From: an uncultured delta proteobacterium
GTDB taxonomy: Bacteria > Desulfobacterota > Binatia > UBA9968
Reading direction: 5' to 3'
NCBI GenBank assembly: GCA_963803415.1
Contig: CAWDMI010000002.1
Location: 2,723,512 to 2,787,511, forward strand
Length of the DNA stretch: 64,000 nucleotides
The notes under the pieces were generated by a model that saw only the letters and a list, made by a program, of their open reading frames with translations, was not told the DNA's origin and made no database searches. Below, piece by piece: positions 2,404 through 62,055 of the stretch. Position numbers and translations under genes: made by a program. How positions within the stretch are numbered: the stretch's first letter is position 1; each line of letters begins with the position of its first letter.

Positions 2404-2808
2404 TTAGGACCCTCTCCCTACGGGAGAGGGAACGGGTGAGGGTTTTGTGTCACGTAACGCCTGCGCAATTTGTTCCAGGACTGCGTCAATATCTTCGAAT
2501 ACCTCGTTATCCCAAAAGCGTAAGACACGATAGCCGCAACGTTTCAGAAAATCAGACCTTCTTTGATCCGCTTCAGTTTGGGTGGCGTGCTGGCCCCCAT
2601 CGAGCTCTACCACCAGGGCGTGTTCCAGGCAGAAGAAATCGACAATGTAACGGCCGATAGGATGCTGGCGGCGGAACTTAGCACCGCAAAGCTGCCGTGC
2701 ACGGATCCGCATCCAAATCCTGCGTTCCGCTTCTGTCTGATTACGGCGCAGTGTGCGGGCCCGTTGCCACAGGATTGAAGCGCTTGGTGCCATGTTGTTC
2801 GCCCTCAC
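2404..2808 (-). CDS. DUF559 / Vsr-like endonuclease domain protein
   Basis: The length and the ...YIVDFFC...LVVELDGGQH...RRSDFLKRCGYRVLRFWDNEV motif match the DUF559 restriction-endonuclease-like fold. The C-terminus reads into repeat copy B. Confidence 0.7.
   Translation of the reverse strand: MRANNMAPSASILWQRARTLRRNQTEAERRIWMRIRARQLCGAKFRRQHPIGRYIVDFFCLEHALVVELDGGQHATQTEADQRRSDFLKRCGYRVLRFWDNEVFEDIDAVLEQIAQALRDTKPSPVPSPVGRGS
2410..2442. repeat. Palindromic dispersed repeat, copy B (ccctctccc-tacg-ggagaggg-aac-gggtgagg)
   Basis: Read directly. It overlaps the 3' end of the DUF559 gene. Confidence 0.6.
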
Positions 2809-2834
2809 CCTGACCCTCTCCCAGAGGGAGAGGG
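2802..2834. repeat. Palindromic dispersed repeat, copy C, in inverted orientation (ccctcaccc-tga-ccctctccc-agag-ggagaggg)
   Basis: Read directly. It sits at the 5' end of DUF559 and is inverted relative to copy B. Confidence 0.6.
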
Positions 2835-32256: not shown

Positions 32257-32982
32257 TTAGCCGCGGATGGCCGAAGAGCTATTAATCGTCGCATGCAGAT
32301 TGCGAGCGAAGGCGTTTGCGCCAATCGGATCCATGTCGTAAGCCGATCTAGCGTATTCCTTGGTGCCCGTGAGTGCGGCACGCGAATACCCTCCGAGCTT
32401 GCTCACAAATTCACGGGTGACGGACTCAAACTCAGTTGCCGGCACAACCCGACTTACCAGGCCAAAGGAAAGCGCCAAGCTGGCGTCGATTTCGTCCGTC
32501 GAATACACGAGATACATAAGCTCCTTTCGCGAAACACGGTCAATTAGCGCCGACATCGCCAGGCTGGGCATGATGTGGTGCGCCATTTCCGGCAACTGAA
32601 AACGGGCTTTGTCGCTCGCGATGGTAACGTCGCAAAGCGCGGCAATCGCGCAACCAAGGCCGGCGGCACGCCCTTGAACGACACCGATGACTGGTACCAC
32701 CGAACGGCGGAAAGCATCGTATAAATTCAGGATCGTGTCGATTCTGTCACGCATCACGTAGGCCTCAATATTGGGCGCCGCTTGCCCCATAGCCTCGCGT
32801 CCCAGACAAAAATCCTCCCCGGCGCTCGCGAGCACGGTGAGCTTTGAATTGTTCGCCGCAGCATCAATCATAGCAGCCAAATCCCCCAACTGCGGGTCAG
32901 TAAGCCGATTGCCGACCTCAGGCCGGTTCAATGTGATCTTGGTAACGTCCCCGTCGCGCTCTTTAAGAATTGGATCAGCCAT
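32257..32982 (-). CDS. Enoyl-CoA hydratase/isomerase (crotonase) family protein
   Basis: Crotonase-fold pattern (VIGVVQGRAAGLGCAIAALCDVTIAS). Confidence 0.65.
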   Translation of the reverse strand: MADPILKERDGDVTKITLNRPEVGNRLTDPQLGDLAAMIDAAANNSKLTVLASAGEDFCLGREAMGQAAPNIEAYVMRDRIDTILNLYDAFRRSVVPVIGVVQGRAAGLGCAIAALCDVTIASDKARFQLPEMAHHIMPSLAMSALIDRVSRKELMYLVYSTDEIDASLALSFGLVSRVVPATEFESVTREFVSKLGGYSRAALTGTKEYARSAYDMDPIGANAFARNLHATINSSSAIRG

Positions 32983-33235
32983 TTTTTCTCCCTCGTGATT
33001 GAAGATCACCAATTTATATAGGGCCGCGGCGAGCGGCGCAATCTGCCGACCGGAACAAAAACGAAGTGTCGCAAGTTCAGCAAAGCAAAGTCCACAAGCA
33101 AGTAAATTTTTCCTTTCTGCGACTTTTTTCCTGTGTCGAACAGGCTGGCGCCGGAATTAAGGTCGGAATTGATTGAAGTTCTCACGTGGAATGGCTTTTG
33201 CTCTTGTCTAATATGAGGAGAAAGGAGGCTCGGCG

Positions 33236-33370
33236 ATGGAACGAATAACAAAAGCAAGAAAAATGTTGGTCGTCGCCATGCTGGCAGTGGTGATGGCTTC
33301 TGCTGCGGGGTGTCATCACTTTTACAACCGGCATTTCAGCGACTATTCTAACCACCACGATCGTGGCTAA
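33236..33370 (+). CDS. Small (44-aa) putative lipoprotein with a His-rich tail (MERITKARKMLVVAMLAVVMASAAGCHHFYNRHFSDYSNHHDRG)
   Basis: Strong RBS gaggagaaaggagg, signal peptide with a lipobox-like AAGC. It is below the ORF-track cutoff and was translated by hand. Confidence 0.35.
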   Translation: MERITKARKMLVVAMLAVVMASAAGCHHFYNRHFSDYSNHHDRG

Positions 33371-33701: not shown

Positions 33702-34199
33702 CTAGTTGTTTTTGCCTTCGGCCTTCTTTTGGCGAAATTGCTCCCTCATCTCAGCCCATTTGGCATGCATCTGCTCCCTATATTGAACGGCCTGGACCAA
33801 TTGGTCTGGCGTTAGTAATTTCCGGATCTCAAGGTTGACCTTGAGGTTCTCGTCCGCGAGCTGACTCTGCAGCTGGGAAAGCTGTTGGGTCTGAGGCGTT
33901 AGGTCAGGCTCTGTCACATTCTCCGTAGATAGGATCCTATTTTCGATCTCGCTGTGGATCGAGTGCATTTGACCGAGAAGCTCGCGGAAGGTGGAACGAT
34001 GGTTTGCCATGATCTGTTGTACCTGCGTCGTTTGCTCAGCTGTGAGATCCACTCCCCGTAACAACATGGGGAAAGTCATCCCCATGGGATGTCTCATTAT
34101 GCCTCTTGGTCTGACAGGCGCCGGATCCCCGTAGGTCAGAGTTACCCCCAATCCCGCCACTATCAAGAGTGCGGCCAATATACCCAAAGATTTCTTCAT
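33702..34199 (-). CDS. Periplasmic Spy/CpxP/ZraP-family (LTXXQ-motif) protein
   Basis: Signal peptide MKKSLGILAALLIVAG, two LTxxQ motifs (LTAEQTTQV, LTPDQLVQ), helical and Q-rich. Confidence 0.65.
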   Translation of the reverse strand: MKKSLGILAALLIVAGLGVTLTYGDPAPVRPRGIMRHPMGMTFPMLLRGVDLTAEQTTQVQQIMANHRSTFRELLGQMHSIHSEIENRILSTENVTEPDLTPQTQQLSQLQSQLADENLKVNLEIRKLLTPDQLVQAVQYREQMHAKWAEMREQFRQKKAEGKNN

Positions 34200-57719: not shown

Positions 57720-58259
57720 TCAACCTGCCGCACGAAGAGGCTCTTTTCTTTTCAGGTAAGTCTTAACCCACGTGTCGTAGAGCAATGCCACGGGATGCTC
57801 TTCCACTCTTCGAACGCCGTTTGAAGTTTGATAAATGATAACCACCGTGTGGTCGTGATTCGAAGCTAGGAGGAGGCGAGGATTCTTTTTGGCGTCCAGC
57901 ACTGCACCTGTGCCACGAAGCATATTGGATAAACAGTGAGAATTCGGCATGCCCTGGGGATCACGCCTACACGCTTTGGCGTGCTCGTCCAGCCGCGCTA
58001 TATCTTTCGAAGTATAAATCAACTCTACGTTCATCGGCGGCCGCTGGTTGGGTCCAACTCCGACCATTGGTTCCGCTTCTTCCCGCCACAGGCGGAGAAA
58101 ATTCGGGAATGACTTGACTTTTCTTTCCTGTTCCTGCGTTTGGCACCTAACTAGATAGCAATTTCCGTAGCAGACGATGTCGTAGGCTTTAGCTTGAAAT
58201 TTCTCTAGCACTTGGCCAATGACACGCAGGGTCTTGGAATAGTCGATTGAATTTCCCAT
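57720..58259 (-). CDS. Hypothetical protein (179 aa, Cys-containing, no recognisable domain)
   Basis: Clean ORF whose codon usage is consistent with its neighbours; no motif recognised. Confidence 0.4.
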   Translation of the reverse strand: MGNSIDYSKTLRVIGQVLEKFQAKAYDIVCYGNCYLVRCQTQEQERKVKSFPNFLRLWREEAEPMVGVGPNQRPPMNVELIYTSKDIARLDEHAKACRRDPQGMPNSHCLSNMLRGTGAVLDAKKNPRLLLASNHDHTVVIIYQTSNGVRRVEEHPVALLYDTWVKTYLKRKEPLRAAG

Positions 58260-59471: not shown

Positions 59472-60551
59472 TGCGCAAGCCCCCTTATGTATTGAAGATA
59501 AAGCCTGACGACTGGAGACGTAGTGTGCTCCTTATCGATGAGAATGTCACGCGGTTTGTCAGACAGTGTCAAAACACAGGGGAGCCCTTCAACGGGGCTC
59601 AGGACGAACGGAGTTTCACATAGTCTGTTGCTGCGTGTGATTCATGCGAGCTGTAGATGCGCCGGAACTTATCGAGGTCCGGCTCCACCAACTTGGATAG
59701 CAACACCTACAGTGGACGAAGGAGGCCTAAGCAAGAAAAATCGAGTAACAATTGGCAAGATTAAGTTGGCAGATGAACAGACACAAGATAAAAGCGCCGC
59801 GACGATTCGTGCTGTTTATAGTCGCGGCGCTTCTCGCCCTTGGCGTTATGGCTGTTCGTGTTGCAGATCCTGACGCTGCTTCTTCTCTTGTTTCCGATTA
59901 GTCTGCTTCTGTGGCGACTGTTGGGTATCAGACTTACCAGGCTGTTGGCCTCTGCGCGATTGCTCTTGTTCTTCTTTTCGGTGCAGTTTGTTGCGGGGGC
60001 GCTCTTGTTGTTTCTGGCGTGCCTGCGCGGCGCGGCTCTACAGCCGCGGGCCGAATTGAAATCCGATGCCCCGGTGCCGTGCTATCCTTTAGTCCCATTT
60101 CCAGTGCTGCGACCTGGGTTACCGGTTTGCCTTGCTGCTTCCGGATCTCGGGCAGCTTTTGCTGGAATGTAGGGGGTGGTGGCGGCGGTGCGGTACGCAC
60201 GACAGCCGCGTGTGACAGAACCTTTGTGGGCGGTCGCTGCGCGCCTCCCTGCCTTCGGCCACGCGTAAGGACGAACGGCTCGGTACCGGCAGTGGCTGCT
60301 GCAGCATGCGGAGCGAGGTCGCAAGCGGGTAACTTTTTTCCCAACGAGGAGATTCTTTCCATGATGTCGATAACCATGAGCGCAGACGCAGCTAACCCGA
60401 TGGTTTCAATTTGTTTCGGGCGCGCCACGAGACGCTCCCCTAGCGCAGTTATCGAGAGTCAGGGGGAGCAAACACGGCGGAGCAACATGGACATGCCGCG
60501 CCTGCTCCCCCTCGACACAGAAGATGAGTGAGTCTTAACAGGCGAGAAAAG

Positions 60552-60935
60552 CTACCGCTCCCACCAATGATGATAGTCCCACCACGCGTGGTAGTGTCCG
60601 TCCTCACCCCTATACTGCCACCAGCGGTGATGTTCATTGAGGTCGTGTCTCAACTCTCCGTGGTCGTTCCTCACCGCATCGCGATCCTGGCGGATTTCCG
60701 CTCTGTCGCGAGCGATCTCTCCCCGGCCGGCGTCGCTGCGCAGATCTTGGTGGAGTTCCCTTCTGTCTCGTTGGAGCTCGCTCAGATCTTGTTGCAGCTC
60801 CCTCTGATCGCGGCGAATTTCCGCGCCCGGGTGGTCCGCTGCCAAGGCGGGGCCTGCGAAAGCACCGATGGCGCCGGCAACCAAGCCGCCTAAAATCATT
60901 ACTTTAGTTCCTTTCTTATTCCGTGAACCGCTCAT
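60552..60935 (-). CDS. Small secreted protein with four roughly 11-aa acidic/basic repeats (EIRRDQRELQQDL-like) and a His/Trp-rich C-terminus (HHRWWQYRGEDGHYHAWWDYHHWWER)
   Basis: RBS aaaggagg 9 nt upstream of the ATG at 60935; signal peptide MSGSRNKKGTKVMILGGLVAGAIGAFAGPALA. Confidence 0.5.
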   Translation of the reverse strand: MSGSRNKKGTKVMILGGLVAGAIGAFAGPALAADHPGAEIRRDQRELQQDLSELQRDRRELHQDLRSDAGRGEIARDRAEIRQDRDAVRNDHGELRHDLNEHHRWWQYRGEDGHYHAWWDYHHWWER

Positions 60936-60980
60936 AATTATTAAACCTCCTTTATCTCCTACAAACACGCTGCCGCGTTT

Positions 60981-61000
60981 ATAGGGAAATTTTTCCCTAT
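60981..61000. promoter_or_regulatory. Perfect 20-bp palindrome ATAGGGAAATTTTTCCCTAT (candidate operator) upstream of the gene at 60935; an extra half-site lies near 61046
   Basis: Read directly. Confidence 0.45.
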
Positions 61001-62055
61001 CCAAATATTTTTTCCGTGCCTTGGCATCGGAAATACCGGTAAAGATAGGGAACTCGCGAATCACGATAAATAAACAGGGCAAGAACCGGACCATCAAGCT
61101 GAATGAGTTTTGGTAAAACAAACAATGTAAGAATCATTCCGTTTTTTTGGTTGTTTGCGGTGTTTCCATCAGGACGTCGAGGGGCTTACCCAATAGTGAA
61201 GCGGAAATGGCACAACCTGTCGCCTTTTGGGGACGGCGGTTACCCCCATCCCGATATTGATGGGTCTAAGTTTTCGCAGCTTGCGCAAATTCTTGCATCA
61301 TTCGACGAACCACTTCCTAACCACGAAGGTGACGAAAATCACGAAGGAAAAGAAAATCATATTGAAAACGGATCGTTTTTCTAACGTTCTTTTTGGTTCT
61401 TCGTGTCCTTCGCGCGCTTTGTGGTAACAGCGTATTTTCTCGTCGATTCGGCAACTCACGGTCGGGGCGCCGGAAAGTTTGCAAGCTGCGAAAACTTTCA
61501 AGCATGGTAGTACGAAGGTCACGAACTGGCTCAAAAAAATAGTTAGTTTAAACTTCGTGCTTACTGTCATTCAACATTGCTCAGGAACGTGAGCCTGCCC
61601 TTCGAGAAGCCCAGGGCTGCGTCTTCGCCGCGTTAGGTCTCTGTGGTGAACACTCCGTCACAGTAAACTCGAAAGGGCAATATTTGTGTCAGGCAACGGG
61701 AGAAAGAACGGACGGATATCCTTGAGTCGGCTTGTCGGGAAAGCAATCAGCGACTTGGAATTGCGCTTAGGAGCGGTGGGAGCGCCGTTGACTACTTGGC
61801 GCCAGGATTTCAATGCGCAAGGAAAAGCACGTCAAGAAGATCTCTCTTGCGGACGTCCTTGTTATCCTCAATCCGTACCTGAAAGTCGATCTGCCGTCTA
61901 GAGTTTCCTCATTTTGACTGGATCGTTCTCTTTACCCTCAGAAGGCCGCGTCGATGGATCGGAAAAAACCAGCAAGATTTGTAATTTTGACATAAACATG
62001 CGCTCGTTGTGTCACTGTTTTTCAAGCAGGCAGAGAAAAACCCAAGCAATCCACG

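What the first reader, a model, noticed from the sequence alone, without database searches (positions are those of the whole stretch)
60552..61000. Small secreted repeat protein with a His/Trp-rich tail, under a perfect 20-bp palindromic operator
The protein is 127 aa. It has a signal peptide, then four roughly 11-aa repeats of the form E-[IL]-R-[RQ]-D-x-x-E-L-x-Q-D-L, then HHRWWQYRGEDGHYHAWWDYHHWWER, which has 6 His and 6 Trp in 26 residues. No known family fits. The tail looks like a metal- or aromatic-ligand-binding module. 45 bp upstream of the ATG lies the perfect palindrome ATAGGGAAA-TT-TTTCCCTAT, and a third ATAGGGAA half-site lies about 60 bp further on. These suggest tight repression by a dimeric regulator.
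Basis: seen in the sequence. Interest (0 to 1): 0.5.

Follow-up and report, generated by a model that had tools for sequence, protein, structure and literature searches.

The report
Unannotated stress-linked exported hairpin protein
The small gene is real and belongs to a large, so far unannotated family of exported two-helix proteins with sticky tryptophan-rich tails that most bacteria place under a cell-envelope stress switch; the "operator" palindrome in front of it is real, but its function is unproven.

Summary
Window 60552..60935 (-) encodes a 127-aa protein with a strong ribosome-binding site, a Sec-type signal peptide and dN/dS of 0.22-0.28 against two orthologues. The repeats are heptads (E-[IL]-R-x-D-R-x), four per helix, in two helices joined by a conserved G-A-G turn. 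The His/Trp tail follows.

No Pfam, NCBIfam or PDB family fits. The protein does belong to a large unannotated family: 449 clusters at 50% identity with E<=1e-10. A Trp/Arg-rich tail is a trait of the whole family. His-richness is not.

In 29 of 62 distinct relatives the gene follows an RpoE-type ECF promoter (AAC-N17-GTCTAA). The same design precedes a linked ECF sigma gene in 7 loci. Two relatives have textbook sigma-54 promoters. The best reading is therefore an envelope-stress effector that works like Spy/CpxP/ZraP without being related to them.

The window's own lineage lacks the ECF motif. The 9-2-9 palindrome is there, but inverted repeats of that quality are not rare in this window (7 found, about 2 expected by chance). 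Its A5T3 core is the downstream half of a conserved promoter-like motif shared with six distinct homologues. Only the outer arms and a third half-site are lineage-specific. An operator, a 5' RNA hairpin and a promoter element all remain possible. No regulator was found.

The parts
60552..60935 (-). Coding sequence of the 127-aa precursor, stop codon included. It is a member of a large unannotated family.
   Evidence: ORF and translation. dN/dS is 0.28 against L002 and 0.22 against L010. There are 314 homologues at E<=1e-3 in the word-indexed search. The exhaustive search gave 1797, 449 and 19 clusters at E<=1e-3, 1e-10 and 1e-30. No Pfam or NCBIfam hit.
60840..60935 (-). Signal peptide, residues 1-32, with predicted cleavage PALA|ADHPG.
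   Evidence: Basic n-region, 17-residue hydrophobic core and an A-x-A site. The equivalent P-A-S-A|D is conserved across the family. No SignalP run was possible.
60738..60821 (-). Helix 1: four heptads of the form E-[IL]-x-x-D-x-x (residues 39-66).
   Evidence: Heptad parsing. The AF2 model has a helix at 36-66 with pLDDT about 80-85. E46, D50, E53, L54 and D57 are invariant or nearly so.
60720..60737 (-). Turn SDAGRG (residues 67-72). The family consensus is R-x-G-A-G/S-x-x.
   Evidence: Alignments A2, A3 and A5. Both AF2 models break the helix here.
60636..60719 (-). Helix 2: four heptads (residues 73-100). It includes the most conserved stretch of the family, E-I-A-R-D-R-A-E-I-R-Q-D.
   Evidence: Alignment A2/A3. 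AF2 helix 71-108. The pattern [AFH][RQH][DE]R[ARM]E[IV][RWF][QGR]D retrieved 78 loci.
60555..60635 (-). C-terminal His/Trp/Tyr/Arg-rich tail (residues 101-127; 6 His, 6 Trp, 3 Tyr).
   Evidence: Read from the sequence. The tail is nearly identical in orthologues P0002 and L010. Family tails contain 10.6% W, and 167 of 185 have at least one W. AF2 confidence here is low, pLDDT about 50.
60946..60953 (-). Shine-Dalgarno sequence AAAGGAGG, 10 nt before the ATG.
   Evidence: Read from the sequence. It is conserved in L002-L005, and AGGAGG precedes nearly all family members.
60981..61000 (.). Inverted repeat ATAGGGAAA-TT-TTTCCCTAT with 9-nt arms. Its centre, GGAAAAATTTCC (read on the gene's strand), is the downstream half of the bipartite motif.
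   Evidence: One arm carries a C>T change in L002-L005. The core is shared with L012, L013 and L100-L104. As RNA it folds into an 8-bp hairpin of -9.9 kcal/mol.
61044..61052 (+). Third half-site, GATAGGGAA.
   Evidence: It is perfectly complementary to 60993..61001, with 42 nt between them. Its conservation could not be tested because the orthologous contigs end before it.
60987..61015 (-). Bipartite promoter-like motif GGAAAAAATAT-N9-GGGAAAAATTT (general form G[GT][GTA]AAAAA-N10-15-[GA]AAAA[AT]TTT).
   Evidence: In 540 kb of fetched loci it occurs only upstream of family genes (window clade, L012, L013, L100-L104). In the window it occurs twice, and in none of 100 shuffles. In four homologues the ribosome-binding site follows it within 8-12 nt.
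60959..60984 (-). Second dyad, CTATAAACGCG-GCAG-CGTGTTTGTAG. It overlaps the right arm of the palindrome by 4 nt and contains the weak sigma-54-like string GGCAGC-N5-TTGTA.
   Evidence: It appears as the alternative (centroid) RNA fold. The single substitution in L002-L005 (T>C) turns a G.U pair into G-C. The block has 2 changes in 53 nt.
60458..60516 (-). Terminator-like hairpin, with an 18-bp main stem, starting 36 nt after the stop codon.
   Evidence: -40.6 kcal/mol with z = -4.5. It is conserved with paired changes in L002-L005. In L010 it is followed by a T-run.

Best explanation
Shown:
- The ORF is a genuine, single-gene transcription unit. It has its own ribosome-binding site and is followed by a terminator-like hairpin.
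- The product has a Sec-type signal peptide.
- The mature protein is 95 aa and extremely hydrophilic (GRAVY -1.88; 17 Arg, 23 Asp/Glu, 10 His, 6 Trp).
- It belongs to a large unannotated family with a fixed architecture: a signal peptide, two helices of about 30 residues built of E-[IL]-R-x-D-R-x heptads, a conserved R-x-G-A-G/S turn between them, and a short Trp/Arg/Gly/Tyr(/His)-rich tail.
- In about half of the relatives the gene sits behind an RpoE-type ECF promoter (AAC-N17-GTCTAA). This has the same design as the promoter of an ECF sigma gene that lies 2-3.5 kb away or directly downstream. A few relatives have canonical sigma-54 promoters.

Inferred:
- The family is an effector of extracytoplasmic (envelope) stress responses.
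- In each heptad the single Leu/Ile seam (position a) is flanked on one side by an acidic stripe (E at g, D at d) and on the other by a basic stripe (R at b and e). The two helices can therefore zip antiparallel, and hairpins can stack into bundles through charge complementarity.
- The aromatic and cationic tail would stick to the membrane interface or to exposed aromatic or anionic surfaces of damaged envelope components.
- The protein would thus act as an ATP-independent periplasmic holdase or stabiliser. It would work like Spy/CpxP/ZraP without being homologous to them.
- In this window's lineage the tail is unusually rich in His. Added metal or pH responsiveness is possible: the pI is 5.9, so the net charge would change sign near pH 6.
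- This lineage has also replaced the ECF promoter with a different conserved bipartite A-tract motif.
- The palindrome is built on the downstream half of that motif. Its lineage-specific outer arms and the third half-site most likely add a further control layer, either an operator for an unidentified dimeric protein or a 5'-proximal RNA hairpin.
For: The gene is real:
- Strong SD and orthologues that start at the same Met.
- dN/dS of 0.22-0.28.

The family:
- 314 hits, none with a Pfam domain among the 120 listed.
- 1797, 449 and 19 clusters at E<=1e-3, 1e-10 and 1e-30.
- Architecture from alignments.
- Two-helix models: pLDDT 80-85 for the window protein and 66-78 for a 95-aa member.

The tail:
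- W 10.6%, R 17.6%, G 12.4%, Y 7.1%, H 5.6% over 185 tails.

ECF link:
- AAC-N15-18-GTCTAA occurs in 29 of 62 distinct upstream regions, against 0.0085 expected per 130 nt.
- It also occurs in L088-L092.
- An orthologous ECF sigma lies near the gene in 9 loci. A more distant ECF sigma lies directly downstream in 3 loci. Pfam confirms them as sigma-70 region 2 plus region 4.
- GGGAACTTTT-N-GTCTAATA lies upstream of that sigma gene in 7 loci.
- Experimentally mapped ECF promoters of the type GAAT...CGTCTAA and GGGAACATTTCC are listed in PMC6180224.

Sigma-54:
- TGGCAC-N5-TTGCT and TGGCAT-N5-TTGCT lie about 50 nt before the ATG in L055 and L040.

Single-gene unit:
- No conserved neighbours across clades.
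- Terminator-like hairpin after the stop.

Window-specific promoter motif and palindrome.
Against: - No experiment exists for any member. The function is inferred from architecture and promoters only.
- The window's own gene lacks the ECF motif, and no ECF sigma gene lies in the 64 kb. Stress control of this particular copy is therefore extrapolated from relatives.
- pTM is low (0.44 and 0.28), so the hairpin packing is not secure.
- Profile comparison with a Spy/CpxP-type alignment from the same genome matches only the signal peptides.
- The sigma factor or regulator that reads the bipartite motif is unknown. My comparison of it with group-3 (SigB-like) promoters rests on memory only.
- The signal peptide was judged by eye.
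Confidence: 0.5

Rival explanations
1. The His/Trp tail is a metal-binding (or aromatic-ligand-binding) module. The gene is kept off by a dimeric metal-sensing repressor (ArsR/SmtB-, CsoR- or MarR-like) bound to the 9-2-9 palindrome, with the third half-site helping. The protein would then be a periplasmic metal buffer or chaperone like ZraP, SilE or PcoE.
For: - The mature protein has 10 His, six of them in HH or HxH arrangements in the tail. The tail is almost invariant in the three orthologues.
- The mature N-terminus would read A-D-H, an ATCUN-like X-X-H (the motif is from my own knowledge).
- The sigma-54-driven relatives L040 and L055 carry very His-rich N-terminal stretches. This recalls the sigma-54/ZraR-controlled ZraP (the ZraP facts are from my own knowledge).
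- The palindrome is perfect, promoter-proximal and has a nearby third half-site.
Against: - His-richness is not a family trait: 5.6% pooled, and most tails are W/R/G/Y.
- There are no Cys or Met ligands.
- There is no match to Metal_resist, LTXXQ or any metal-binding family.
- The ATCUN-like start is absent from the orthologues.
- No regulator gene lies nearby, and the palindrome has no second copy in 64 kb.
- One arm is already imperfect in the closest orthologue.
- The core of the palindrome is shared with homologues that lack the outer arms.
Confidence: 0.2
2. The palindrome acts in RNA, not in DNA. Transcription starts just upstream, near 61000. The mRNA then begins with an 8-bp hairpin that can exchange with a second overlapping hairpin (60984..60959), setting mRNA stability or ribosome access. 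On this reading there is no operator.
For: - Both substitutions in the 53-nt conserved block of L002-L005 keep pairing on the sense strand: G-C becomes G.U in hairpin A, and G.U becomes G-C in hairpin B.
- In L002 the sense strand folds at -7.0 kcal/mol and the antisense at only -2.8.
- L012 forms a comparable hairpin (-7.7) with different outer bases.
- The 79-nt leader folds better than shuffles, z = -2.9.
Against: - Only two substitutions are informative.
- Five other carriers of the core motif form no hairpin.
- No good sigma-70 promoter lies upstream of 61000. The best candidate, TTTCCG-17-AAATAT, matches 3 of 6 in each hexamer (read from the sequence), and the scan found none.
- No Rfam family matches.
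- The third half-site has no role in this model.
Confidence: 0.25
3. The family are periplasmic hydrophilins (LEA-like protectants). These would be very hydrophilic, charge-striped helices that shield membranes and proteins during drying or osmotic stress in soil bacteria, with the Trp-rich tail as a membrane anchor.
For: - GRAVY is -1.88 and Gly 6.3%. This meets the usual hydrophilin criteria (Gly above 6%, high hydrophilicity; recalled from my own knowledge).
- The helices have an acidic and a basic stripe beside a narrow apolar seam, as in group-3 LEA helices (own knowledge).
- The sources are mostly soil and groundwater metagenomes.
- The promoters are of stress-sigma types.
Against: - The repeat is a 7-mer, not the LEA 11-mer.
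- No LEA or hydrophilin family is hit.
- AF2 predicts a folded hairpin rather than disorder.
- ECF RpoE-type control points to envelope damage rather than water stress as such.
Confidence: 0.12
4. The protein is a precursor of a secreted Trp/Arg-rich antimicrobial or competition peptide. The charged hairpin would serve as a neutralising pro-domain.
For: Tails such as RWWRWHNWWRN, HRWPGWWW and RWWGWWGR resemble Trp/Arg-rich antimicrobial peptides such as indolicidin, tritrpticin and the puroindoline domain (own knowledge).
Against: - No immunity, processing or export genes lie next to the gene in any locus.
- The most conserved part is the hairpin, not the tail.
- ECF sigma autoregulatory linkage fits self-protection, not attack.
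- The window tail is acidic to neutral (pI 6.3), not cationic.
Confidence: 0.05

Closest known systems
Spy / CpxP / ZraP periplasmic stress proteins (Pfam LTXXQ PF07813, Metal_resist PF13801)
   Same: - Small size (about 100-150 aa), Sec-exported and all-alpha.
- Built on a long helical hairpin, and highly charged.
- Encoded by stand-alone genes driven by envelope-stress systems. ZraP in particular is driven from a sigma-54 promoter and has a His-rich tail (own knowledge).
- Two members of this family have sigma-54 promoters and His-rich segments.
   Different: - No sequence relationship. No Pfam hit appears even at E<=10.
- Profile-profile comparison with a Spy/CpxP-type alignment from the same genome gives 18% probability, over the signal peptides only.
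- There are no LTXXQ motifs.
- The core repeat is E-[IL]-R-x-D-R-x with Asp at the d position.
- The usual driver is an RpoE-type ECF sigma, not Cpx or Bae.
- The window itself carries a true LTXXQ protein at 33702..34199, so the two families coexist.
RpoE/AlgU-type ECF sigma regulon members (promoter GGAACTT-N16-TCTAA/TCTGA)
   Same: - Most family members carry AAC(A)TTT-N-CGTCTAA at 16-34 nt before the ATG.
- The linked ECF sigma gene carries GGGAACTTTT-N-GTCTAATA.
- Comparable mapped ECF promoters are listed in PMC6180224.
   Different: - The window copy has no such motif and no ECF sigma gene within 64 kb.
- The product resembles none of the known sigma-E regulon chaperones or proteases by sequence.
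Operators of dimeric repressors (for example the 12-2-12 sites of ArsR/SmtB, or MarR/TetR palindromes)
   Same: - Perfect 9-2-9 dyad.
- Promoter-proximal position, 45 nt before the ATG.
- An additional half-site 42 nt away.
   Different: - No cognate regulator gene is adjacent.
- The dyad centre is an A5T3 tract that is conserved as part of a wider promoter-like motif in homologues that lack the arms.
- The symmetry is already broken in the closest orthologue.
E. coli YjdP-type small periplasmic proteins with charged DRRRQ-like repeats (recalled from memory, not tested)
   Same: A signal peptide followed by Arg/Asp/Glu/Gln-rich helical repeats, with unknown function.
   Different: - Not recovered by any search here.
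- No Trp-rich tail.
- No evidence of homology.

Membership tests
Spy/CpxP/ZraP (LTXXQ, Metal_resist) | Match to PF07813/PF13801, or LTXXQ motifs | tested here: not met
   There is no hit at E<=10. hhalign of A3 against A4 gives 18% probability over the signal peptides only. No LTXXQ is present in the sequence.
Spy/CpxP/ZraP (LTXXQ, Metal_resist) | Exported small all-alpha hairpin protein | tested here: met
   Signal peptide features. AF2 models show two long helices. The packing confidence is only moderate.
Spy/CpxP/ZraP (LTXXQ, Metal_resist) | ATP-independent chaperone activity or feedback on a stress sensor | not testable with these tools
   This needs biochemistry.
New family (heptad hairpin plus Trp-rich tail) | Signal peptide, E-[IL]-R-x-D-R-x heptads in two arms, R-x-G-A-G/S turn, core E-I-A-R-D-R-A-E-I-R-Q-D, aromatic tail | tested here: met
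   The family HMM scores 4.6e-34 on the window ORF. Alignments. Tail statistics.
RpoE-type ECF regulon | -35 AAC and -10 (C)GTCTAA with a spacing of about 17 nt upstream of the gene | tested here: not met
   There is no match in the window, and the loose matches lie elsewhere. The feature is met in 29 of 62 distinct relatives and in L088-L092.
RpoE-type ECF regulon | Linked ECF sigma/anti-sigma genes | tested here: not met
   There is no ECF sigma in the 64-kb window. The feature is met in 12 relatives' loci.
Sigma-54-dependent gene | TGGCAC-N5-TTGC (GG at -24, GC at -12) at a workable distance from the start | tested here: not met
   The only candidate is cGGCAG-cgtgt-TTGTA at 60974..60960, with T at -12 and a predicted start inside the SD. 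The same window holds three canonical sites elsewhere. A sigma-54 activator gene lies 3 kb away but is not adjacent.
Operator of a dimeric repressor | Dyad symmetry overlapping the promoter | tested here: inconclusive
   The dyad is perfect. The promoter is not mapped. The candidate promoter motif overlaps it.
Operator of a dimeric repressor | Symmetry conserved in orthologues | tested here: inconclusive
   L002-L005 keep 8 of 9 positions in one arm. Only one independent orthologous upstream sequence exists.
Operator of a dimeric repressor | Cognate regulator and further sites in the genome (a regulon) | not testable with these tools
   Only 64 kb is available, and it holds no second copy with up to 3 mismatches. 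The source genome is not among the GTDB representatives scanned.
His-rich periplasmic metal binders (ZraP, SilE/PcoE, RcnB) | Family HMM match or conserved metal-ligand motifs | tested here: not met
   There are no hits. His is conserved only within the three close orthologues.
Hydrophilin / LEA-like | Gly above 6% and high hydrophilicity; 11-mer repeats for group-3 LEA | tested here: inconclusive
   Gly is 6.3% and GRAVY -1.88, which meets the composition rule (recalled from memory). The repeat is 7 residues, not 11. No LEA family is hit.

The most novel reading that the evidence does not exclude
The family is a previously unrecognised, widespread class of envelope-stress effectors. These are Sec-exported 'charge-zipper' helical hairpins with Asp at the heptad d position and a Trp/Arg-rich C-terminal anchor. 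They are transcribed directly by an RpoE-like ECF sigma, and in some genomes they are the first gene of that sigma's operon. They would act as periplasmic holdases or membrane stabilisers, or as feedback ligands of the anti-sigma pathway. This would be a non-homologous counterpart of Spy/CpxP/ZraP in Binatia, Betaproteobacteria, Verrucomicrobiota, Gemmatimonadota and Planctomycetota. The window's His/Trp-tailed copy would be a rewired variant with metal- or pH-gated behaviour.
Probability: 0.3. Interest if true: 0.65.

Novelty: new variant of a known kind. Interest (0 to 1): 0.5.

Why it matters
Small stress-induced periplasmic proteins such as Spy, CpxP and ZraP are central to how model bacteria survive envelope damage. 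Very little is known about their counterparts in the uncultured soil and groundwater phyla that dominate metagenomes.

This family is large: hundreds of clusters at 50% identity. It has no Pfam model, no solved structure and no paper that I could find. It does come with a clear and testable regulatory link, because the same ECF promoter design precedes both the gene and its linked sigma factor.

It offers three things:
- a simple reporter for that sigma factor;
- a candidate new chaperone or stabiliser fold with an unusual polar (Asp/Arg) heptad core;
- in the window's lineage, a natural case of promoter rewiring.

Tried and rejected
1. Curated families. Pfam and NCBIfam gave only noise. A PDB sequence-profile search gave nothing below E = 0.05.

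3. Homology to the Spy/CpxP-type protein of the same genome. Rejected.

4. Sigma-54 promoter for the window gene. Rejected. The -12 position is GT, the predicted start would fall inside the SD, and three canonical sites elsewhere in the window show what real ones look like in this genome.

5. Sigma-70 promoter. The scan found none near the gene. The best manual fit, TTTGGA-16-TATAAA, is weak and is not shared with L012 or L013.

6. ECF promoter for the window gene. Absent.

7. Heat-shock (sigma-32-like) reading of CCCTATAA. Not shared by L012, so dropped.

8. Regulon search. There is no second palindrome in the window. The source genome was not in the GTDB representative set, so no genome-wide scan was possible.

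9. A conserved partner gene. The 164-aa ORF downstream (59934..60428) has no family and no counterpart in L002. That stretch is extra DNA absent from L002 and L010.

10. Rfam. Nothing at gathering thresholds, and only spurious miRNA hits on the terminator hairpin at relaxed thresholds.

11. Literature. An exact-string search for the palindrome core and keyword searches found nothing relevant.

12. Taxonomic identity of the source. Not recovered.

13. The second bipartite-motif site at 33131. It matches the regular expression but scores only E of about 1 with a profile built from the other sites. I keep it as a weak lead only.
Full report
**1. The observation**

The minus strand of window 60552..60935 carries an ORF of 127 codons. 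AAAGGAGG lies 10 nt before its ATG. The public gene call for this locus (P0001, 180 aa) starts further upstream. That is an over-extension, because the closest homologue (P0002, 126 aa, 73% identical) starts at the Met used here and the upstream frame is not conserved.

The N-terminus looks like a Sec signal peptide. It has a basic n-region MSGSRNKKGTK, a 17-residue apolar core and PALA|AD. The equivalent P-A-S-A|D is conserved throughout the homologues. No signal-peptide predictor was available, so this is a judgement from the sequence.

The tail has 6 His and 6 Trp in 26 residues, as reported.

The repeat period is 7, not about 11:
- Helix 1 has four heptads: EIRRDQR, ELQQDLS, ELQRDRR, ELHQDLR.
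- A turn SDAGRG follows.
- Helix 2 has four heptads: EIARDRA, EIRQDRD, AVRNDHG, ELRHDLN.

The palindrome is two perfect 9-nt arms around a TT spacer (60981..61000), 45 nt before the ATG. A third half-site, GATAGGGAA, lies at 61044..61052.

**2. Is it more than chance?**

The gene is clearly real. Against two orthologues, dN/dS is 0.28 (L002) and 0.22 (L010), with dS of 0.56-0.68.

The palindrome alone is not significant. Perfect inverted repeats with arms of at least 9 nt and spacers of 0-4 nt occur 7 times in this window, against 2.1 +/- 1.5 in dinucleotide shuffles. What gives it weight is its context:
- The 85 nt upstream of the gene are about 93% identical to L003, while 40% of synonymous sites differ.
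- A 9-nt match to one arm lies only 42 nt away.

**3. What the protein is**

Pfam, NCBIfam and PDB sequence searches give nothing. It is not an orphan, however:
- A profile search of the 5.8-billion-protein collection finds 314 relatives. None of the 120 listed has a Pfam domain or a meaningful name.
- An exhaustive HMMER scan of 1.84 billion cluster representatives finds 1797 clusters at E<=1e-3, 449 at E<=1e-10 and 19 at E<=1e-30.

The members are 83-230 aa long and share one plan:
- a signal peptide;
- about five E-[IL]-R-x-D-R-x heptads;
- a turn R-x-G-A-G/S-x-x;
- the most conserved stretch, E-I-A-R-D-R-A-E-I-R-Q-D, and three or four more heptads;
- a tail of 8-40 residues.

Pooled over 185 tails, the composition is W 10.6%, R 17.6%, G 12.4%, Y 7.1% and H 5.6%. 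167 tails contain Trp. The window's tail, at 22% His, is near the top for His. That His-rich tail is almost invariant among its three close orthologues. A Trp-rich sticky tail is therefore a family trait, and His-richness is a speciality of this lineage.

On a helical wheel the heptad places a single Leu/Ile seam (position a) between two stripes. One is acidic (E at g, D at d) and the other is basic (R at b and e). Such helices are suited to antiparallel charge-zipper pairing and to stacking into bundles. This is my inference from the sequence.

The mature window protein is 95 aa and 11.9 kDa, with pI 5.9 and GRAVY -1.88.

**4. Regulation across the family: the most informative result**

I collected 78 loci from metagenomes, 12 from genome representatives and several by exact look-up. 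For each I located the start codon and read the upstream DNA.

- **ECF promoter.** 29 of 62 distinct upstream regions carry AAC-N15-18-GTCTAA, typically (G/T)(A/T)AAAC(A)TTT...CGTCTAA. It ends 16-34 nt before the ATG in most (18-45 nt in all). The expectation is 0.0085 per 130 nt, measured over all fetched DNA. Five more genome loci have it. This is the design of RpoE-type ECF promoters. Mapped examples of the type GAAT...CGTCTAA and GGGAACATTTCC are tabulated in PMC6180224. The E. coli sigma-E consensus GGAACTT-N16-TCTAA/TCTGA is from my own knowledge.

- **Linked sigma gene.** A phmmer search with the ECF sigma found near the gene in L008 shows an orthologous sigma (E of 1e-79 to 1e-128) in nine loci. 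It lies 1.7-3.5 kb downstream and convergent. A more distant ECF sigma lies immediately downstream on the same strand in three others: L044, L071 and L067. Pfam confirms five of the eleven further sigma ORFs as sigma-70 region 2 plus region 4 (only region 2 in the cut-off L067 ORF); L008's own sigma has these domains on record.

- **Shared promoter design.** Upstream of that sigma gene, seven loci carry GGGAACTTTT...(A/T)GTCTAATA. This has the same -35 and -10 elements and the same spacing as the motif in front of the family gene. ECF sigma genes are usually autoregulated (established knowledge). The simplest reading is that the same sigma transcribes both genes.

- **Sigma-54.** Two longer members, L055 and L040, instead have textbook sigma-54 promoters (TGGCAC-atccg-TTGCT and TGGCAT-atcag-TTGCT). 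They also have very His-rich N-terminal segments.

- **Gene context.** Apart from the sigma gene, the neighbours are not conserved. Some loci hold two tandem paralogues, for example L031 and L038.

**5. Regulation of the window copy**

The window copy has no ECF motif, and no ECF sigma gene lies in the 64 kb.

A sigma-54-like string (cGGCAG-N5-TTGTA, 60974..60960) has T at -12 and would place the start inside the SD. Three canonical sigma-54 promoters elsewhere in the window show what real ones look like in this genome. I reject the sigma-54 reading.

The window clade does share something with the next-closest homologues (L012, L013 and L100-L104, 36-47% identical proteins). That is a bipartite A-tract motif, G[GT][GTA]AAAAA-N10-15-[GA]AAAA[AT]TTT.
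- In 540 kb of fetched loci it occurs only upstream of these family genes.
- In the window it occurs twice (61015..60987 and 33131..33104) and in none of 100 shuffles.
- The second window site scores poorly with a profile built from the other sites.
- In L012, L100, L102 and L104 the ribosome-binding site follows the downstream half within 8-12 nt. That half must therefore lie at about -10/+1 of the promoter.

In the window, that downstream half (GGGAAAAATTTCCC) is the centre of the palindrome. The shared and functionally constrained part is thus the A5T3 core. The outer arms (ATAG/CTAT) and the third half-site are specific to the window lineage.

I cannot name the sigma factor or regulator that reads this motif. 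Its shape recalls group-3 (SigB-like) promoters: a -35 element like G(T/G)(A/T)AAA, a spacer of about 12-14 nt, and a -10 element like GGRAAA. That comparison rests on memory only.

**6. Operator, RNA hairpin or promoter element?**

- **For an operator.** The dyad is perfect, promoter-proximal, and has a third half-site.
- **Against an operator.** No regulator gene lies within 3 kb. No second copy lies in 64 kb. One arm is already changed in L002-L005.
- **For an RNA hairpin.**
  - That change (C>T) keeps a G.U pair on the sense strand: the fold is -7.0 kcal/mol against -2.8 for the antisense.
  - A second, overlapping dyad (CUAUAAACGCG-GCAG-CGUGUUUGUAG, 60984..60959) has its only substitution turning G.U into G-C.
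  - L012 forms a similar hairpin with different outer bases.
- **Against an RNA hairpin.** Only two substitutions are informative. Five other carriers of the core form no hairpin. No good promoter is visible upstream of 61000.

I leave the three readings open, at roughly one third each. They are not mutually exclusive.

**7. Comparison with known systems**

The nearest functional analogues are Spy, CpxP and ZraP. These are small, exported, helical-hairpin proteins that are strongly induced by envelope stress. ZraP is expressed from a sigma-54 promoter and has a His-rich tail (own knowledge).

Membership of that family is excluded. No LTXXQ or Metal_resist hit appears. Profile-profile comparison with an alignment built from the genuine LTXXQ protein encoded in the same window (33702..34199; PF13801, E = 6e-12) aligns only the signal peptides.

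The family is therefore a non-homologous variant of a known functional kind. I found no paper describing it.

**8. Verdict**

The finding is a real gene of a large, uncharacterised, stress-linked family. The interpretation (metal module plus repressor) is possible for this lineage but is not what the family-wide evidence points to.

Interest is moderate. The family and its ECF link are new and testable. All function is inferred, and the window copy is the atypical, rewired one.

Noticed in passing
window 33702..34199 (-): A 165-aa exported protein with two LTXXQ motifs (LTAEQ, LTPDQ). It matches Pfam Metal_resist at 6e-12, and homologues are named Spy/CpxP. The genome therefore has a canonical periplasmic stress chaperone as well as the new family.
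   Followed up: yes
window 33236..33370 (+): A 44-aa ORF with a strong SD and a lipobox (AAG|C). The mature 19-residue peptide, CHHFYNRHFSDYSNHHDRG, has 5 His and 4 aromatic residues. It is a possible mini-lipoprotein with a His/aromatic-rich composition like the target's tail. No Pfam hit.
   Followed up: partly
window 33104..33131 (-): This is the only other match in the window to the bipartite A-tract motif (GGAAAAAAGTCGCAGAAAGGAAAAATTT). It lies in the intergenic region between the mini-lipoprotein ORF and an enoyl-CoA hydratase gene (32257..32982). None of 100 shuffles produced a match, but a profile built from the other sites gives it only E of about 1.
   Followed up: partly
window 58287, 9431 and 6164 (all minus strand): Three canonical sigma-54 promoters (GGCAC-N5-TTGC) lie directly upstream of ORFs. 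One precedes the unannotated 179-aa ORF at 57720..58259, two genes downstream of the target. A sigma-54 activator gene lies just beyond the window end (L001 2341..3855).
   Followed up: no
window about 59490..60446: About 0.8-1.3 kb of DNA between the target and the NMT1-type binding-protein gene is absent from the orthologous loci L010 and L002. It has an odd composition (GC up to 0.62, AT skew -0.54) and no recognisable ORF. It may be an insertion remnant. In L002-L005 the NMT1 gene is also truncated at its 5' end.
   Followed up: partly
window 2410..2430 and 2814..2834: There are two copies of the perfect palindrome CCCTCTCCC-N3-GGGAGAGGG, 404 nt apart.
   Followed up: no
L044 3790..4939; L071 6..893; L067 2223..3044: In these three loci the family gene is immediately followed, on the same strand, by an ECF sigma gene. 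This suggests an operon that starts with the small exported protein, and it raises the possibility of a feedback role in that sigma pathway.
   Followed up: partly
L040 3601.. and L055 1148..: These longer family members carry very His-rich N-terminal extensions (for example DDHDHDHGRDHDRRH). They sit behind textbook sigma-54 promoters, a parallel to ZraP.
   Followed up: partly
L031 (two hits) and L038 (two hits): Tandem paralogous copies of the family gene lie in one locus.
   Followed up: no
L004 1..70: The contig begins with a copy of the 3' part of the family gene fused directly upstream of the palindrome. This is either an assembly artefact or a tandem duplication.
   Followed up: no
window 60936..61094 (-): The public gene call (P0001, 180 aa; one member is named 'gas vesicle protein' by JGI) starts 53 codons too early and reads through the promoter region. 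The name is a spurious coiled-coil match.
   Followed up: yes
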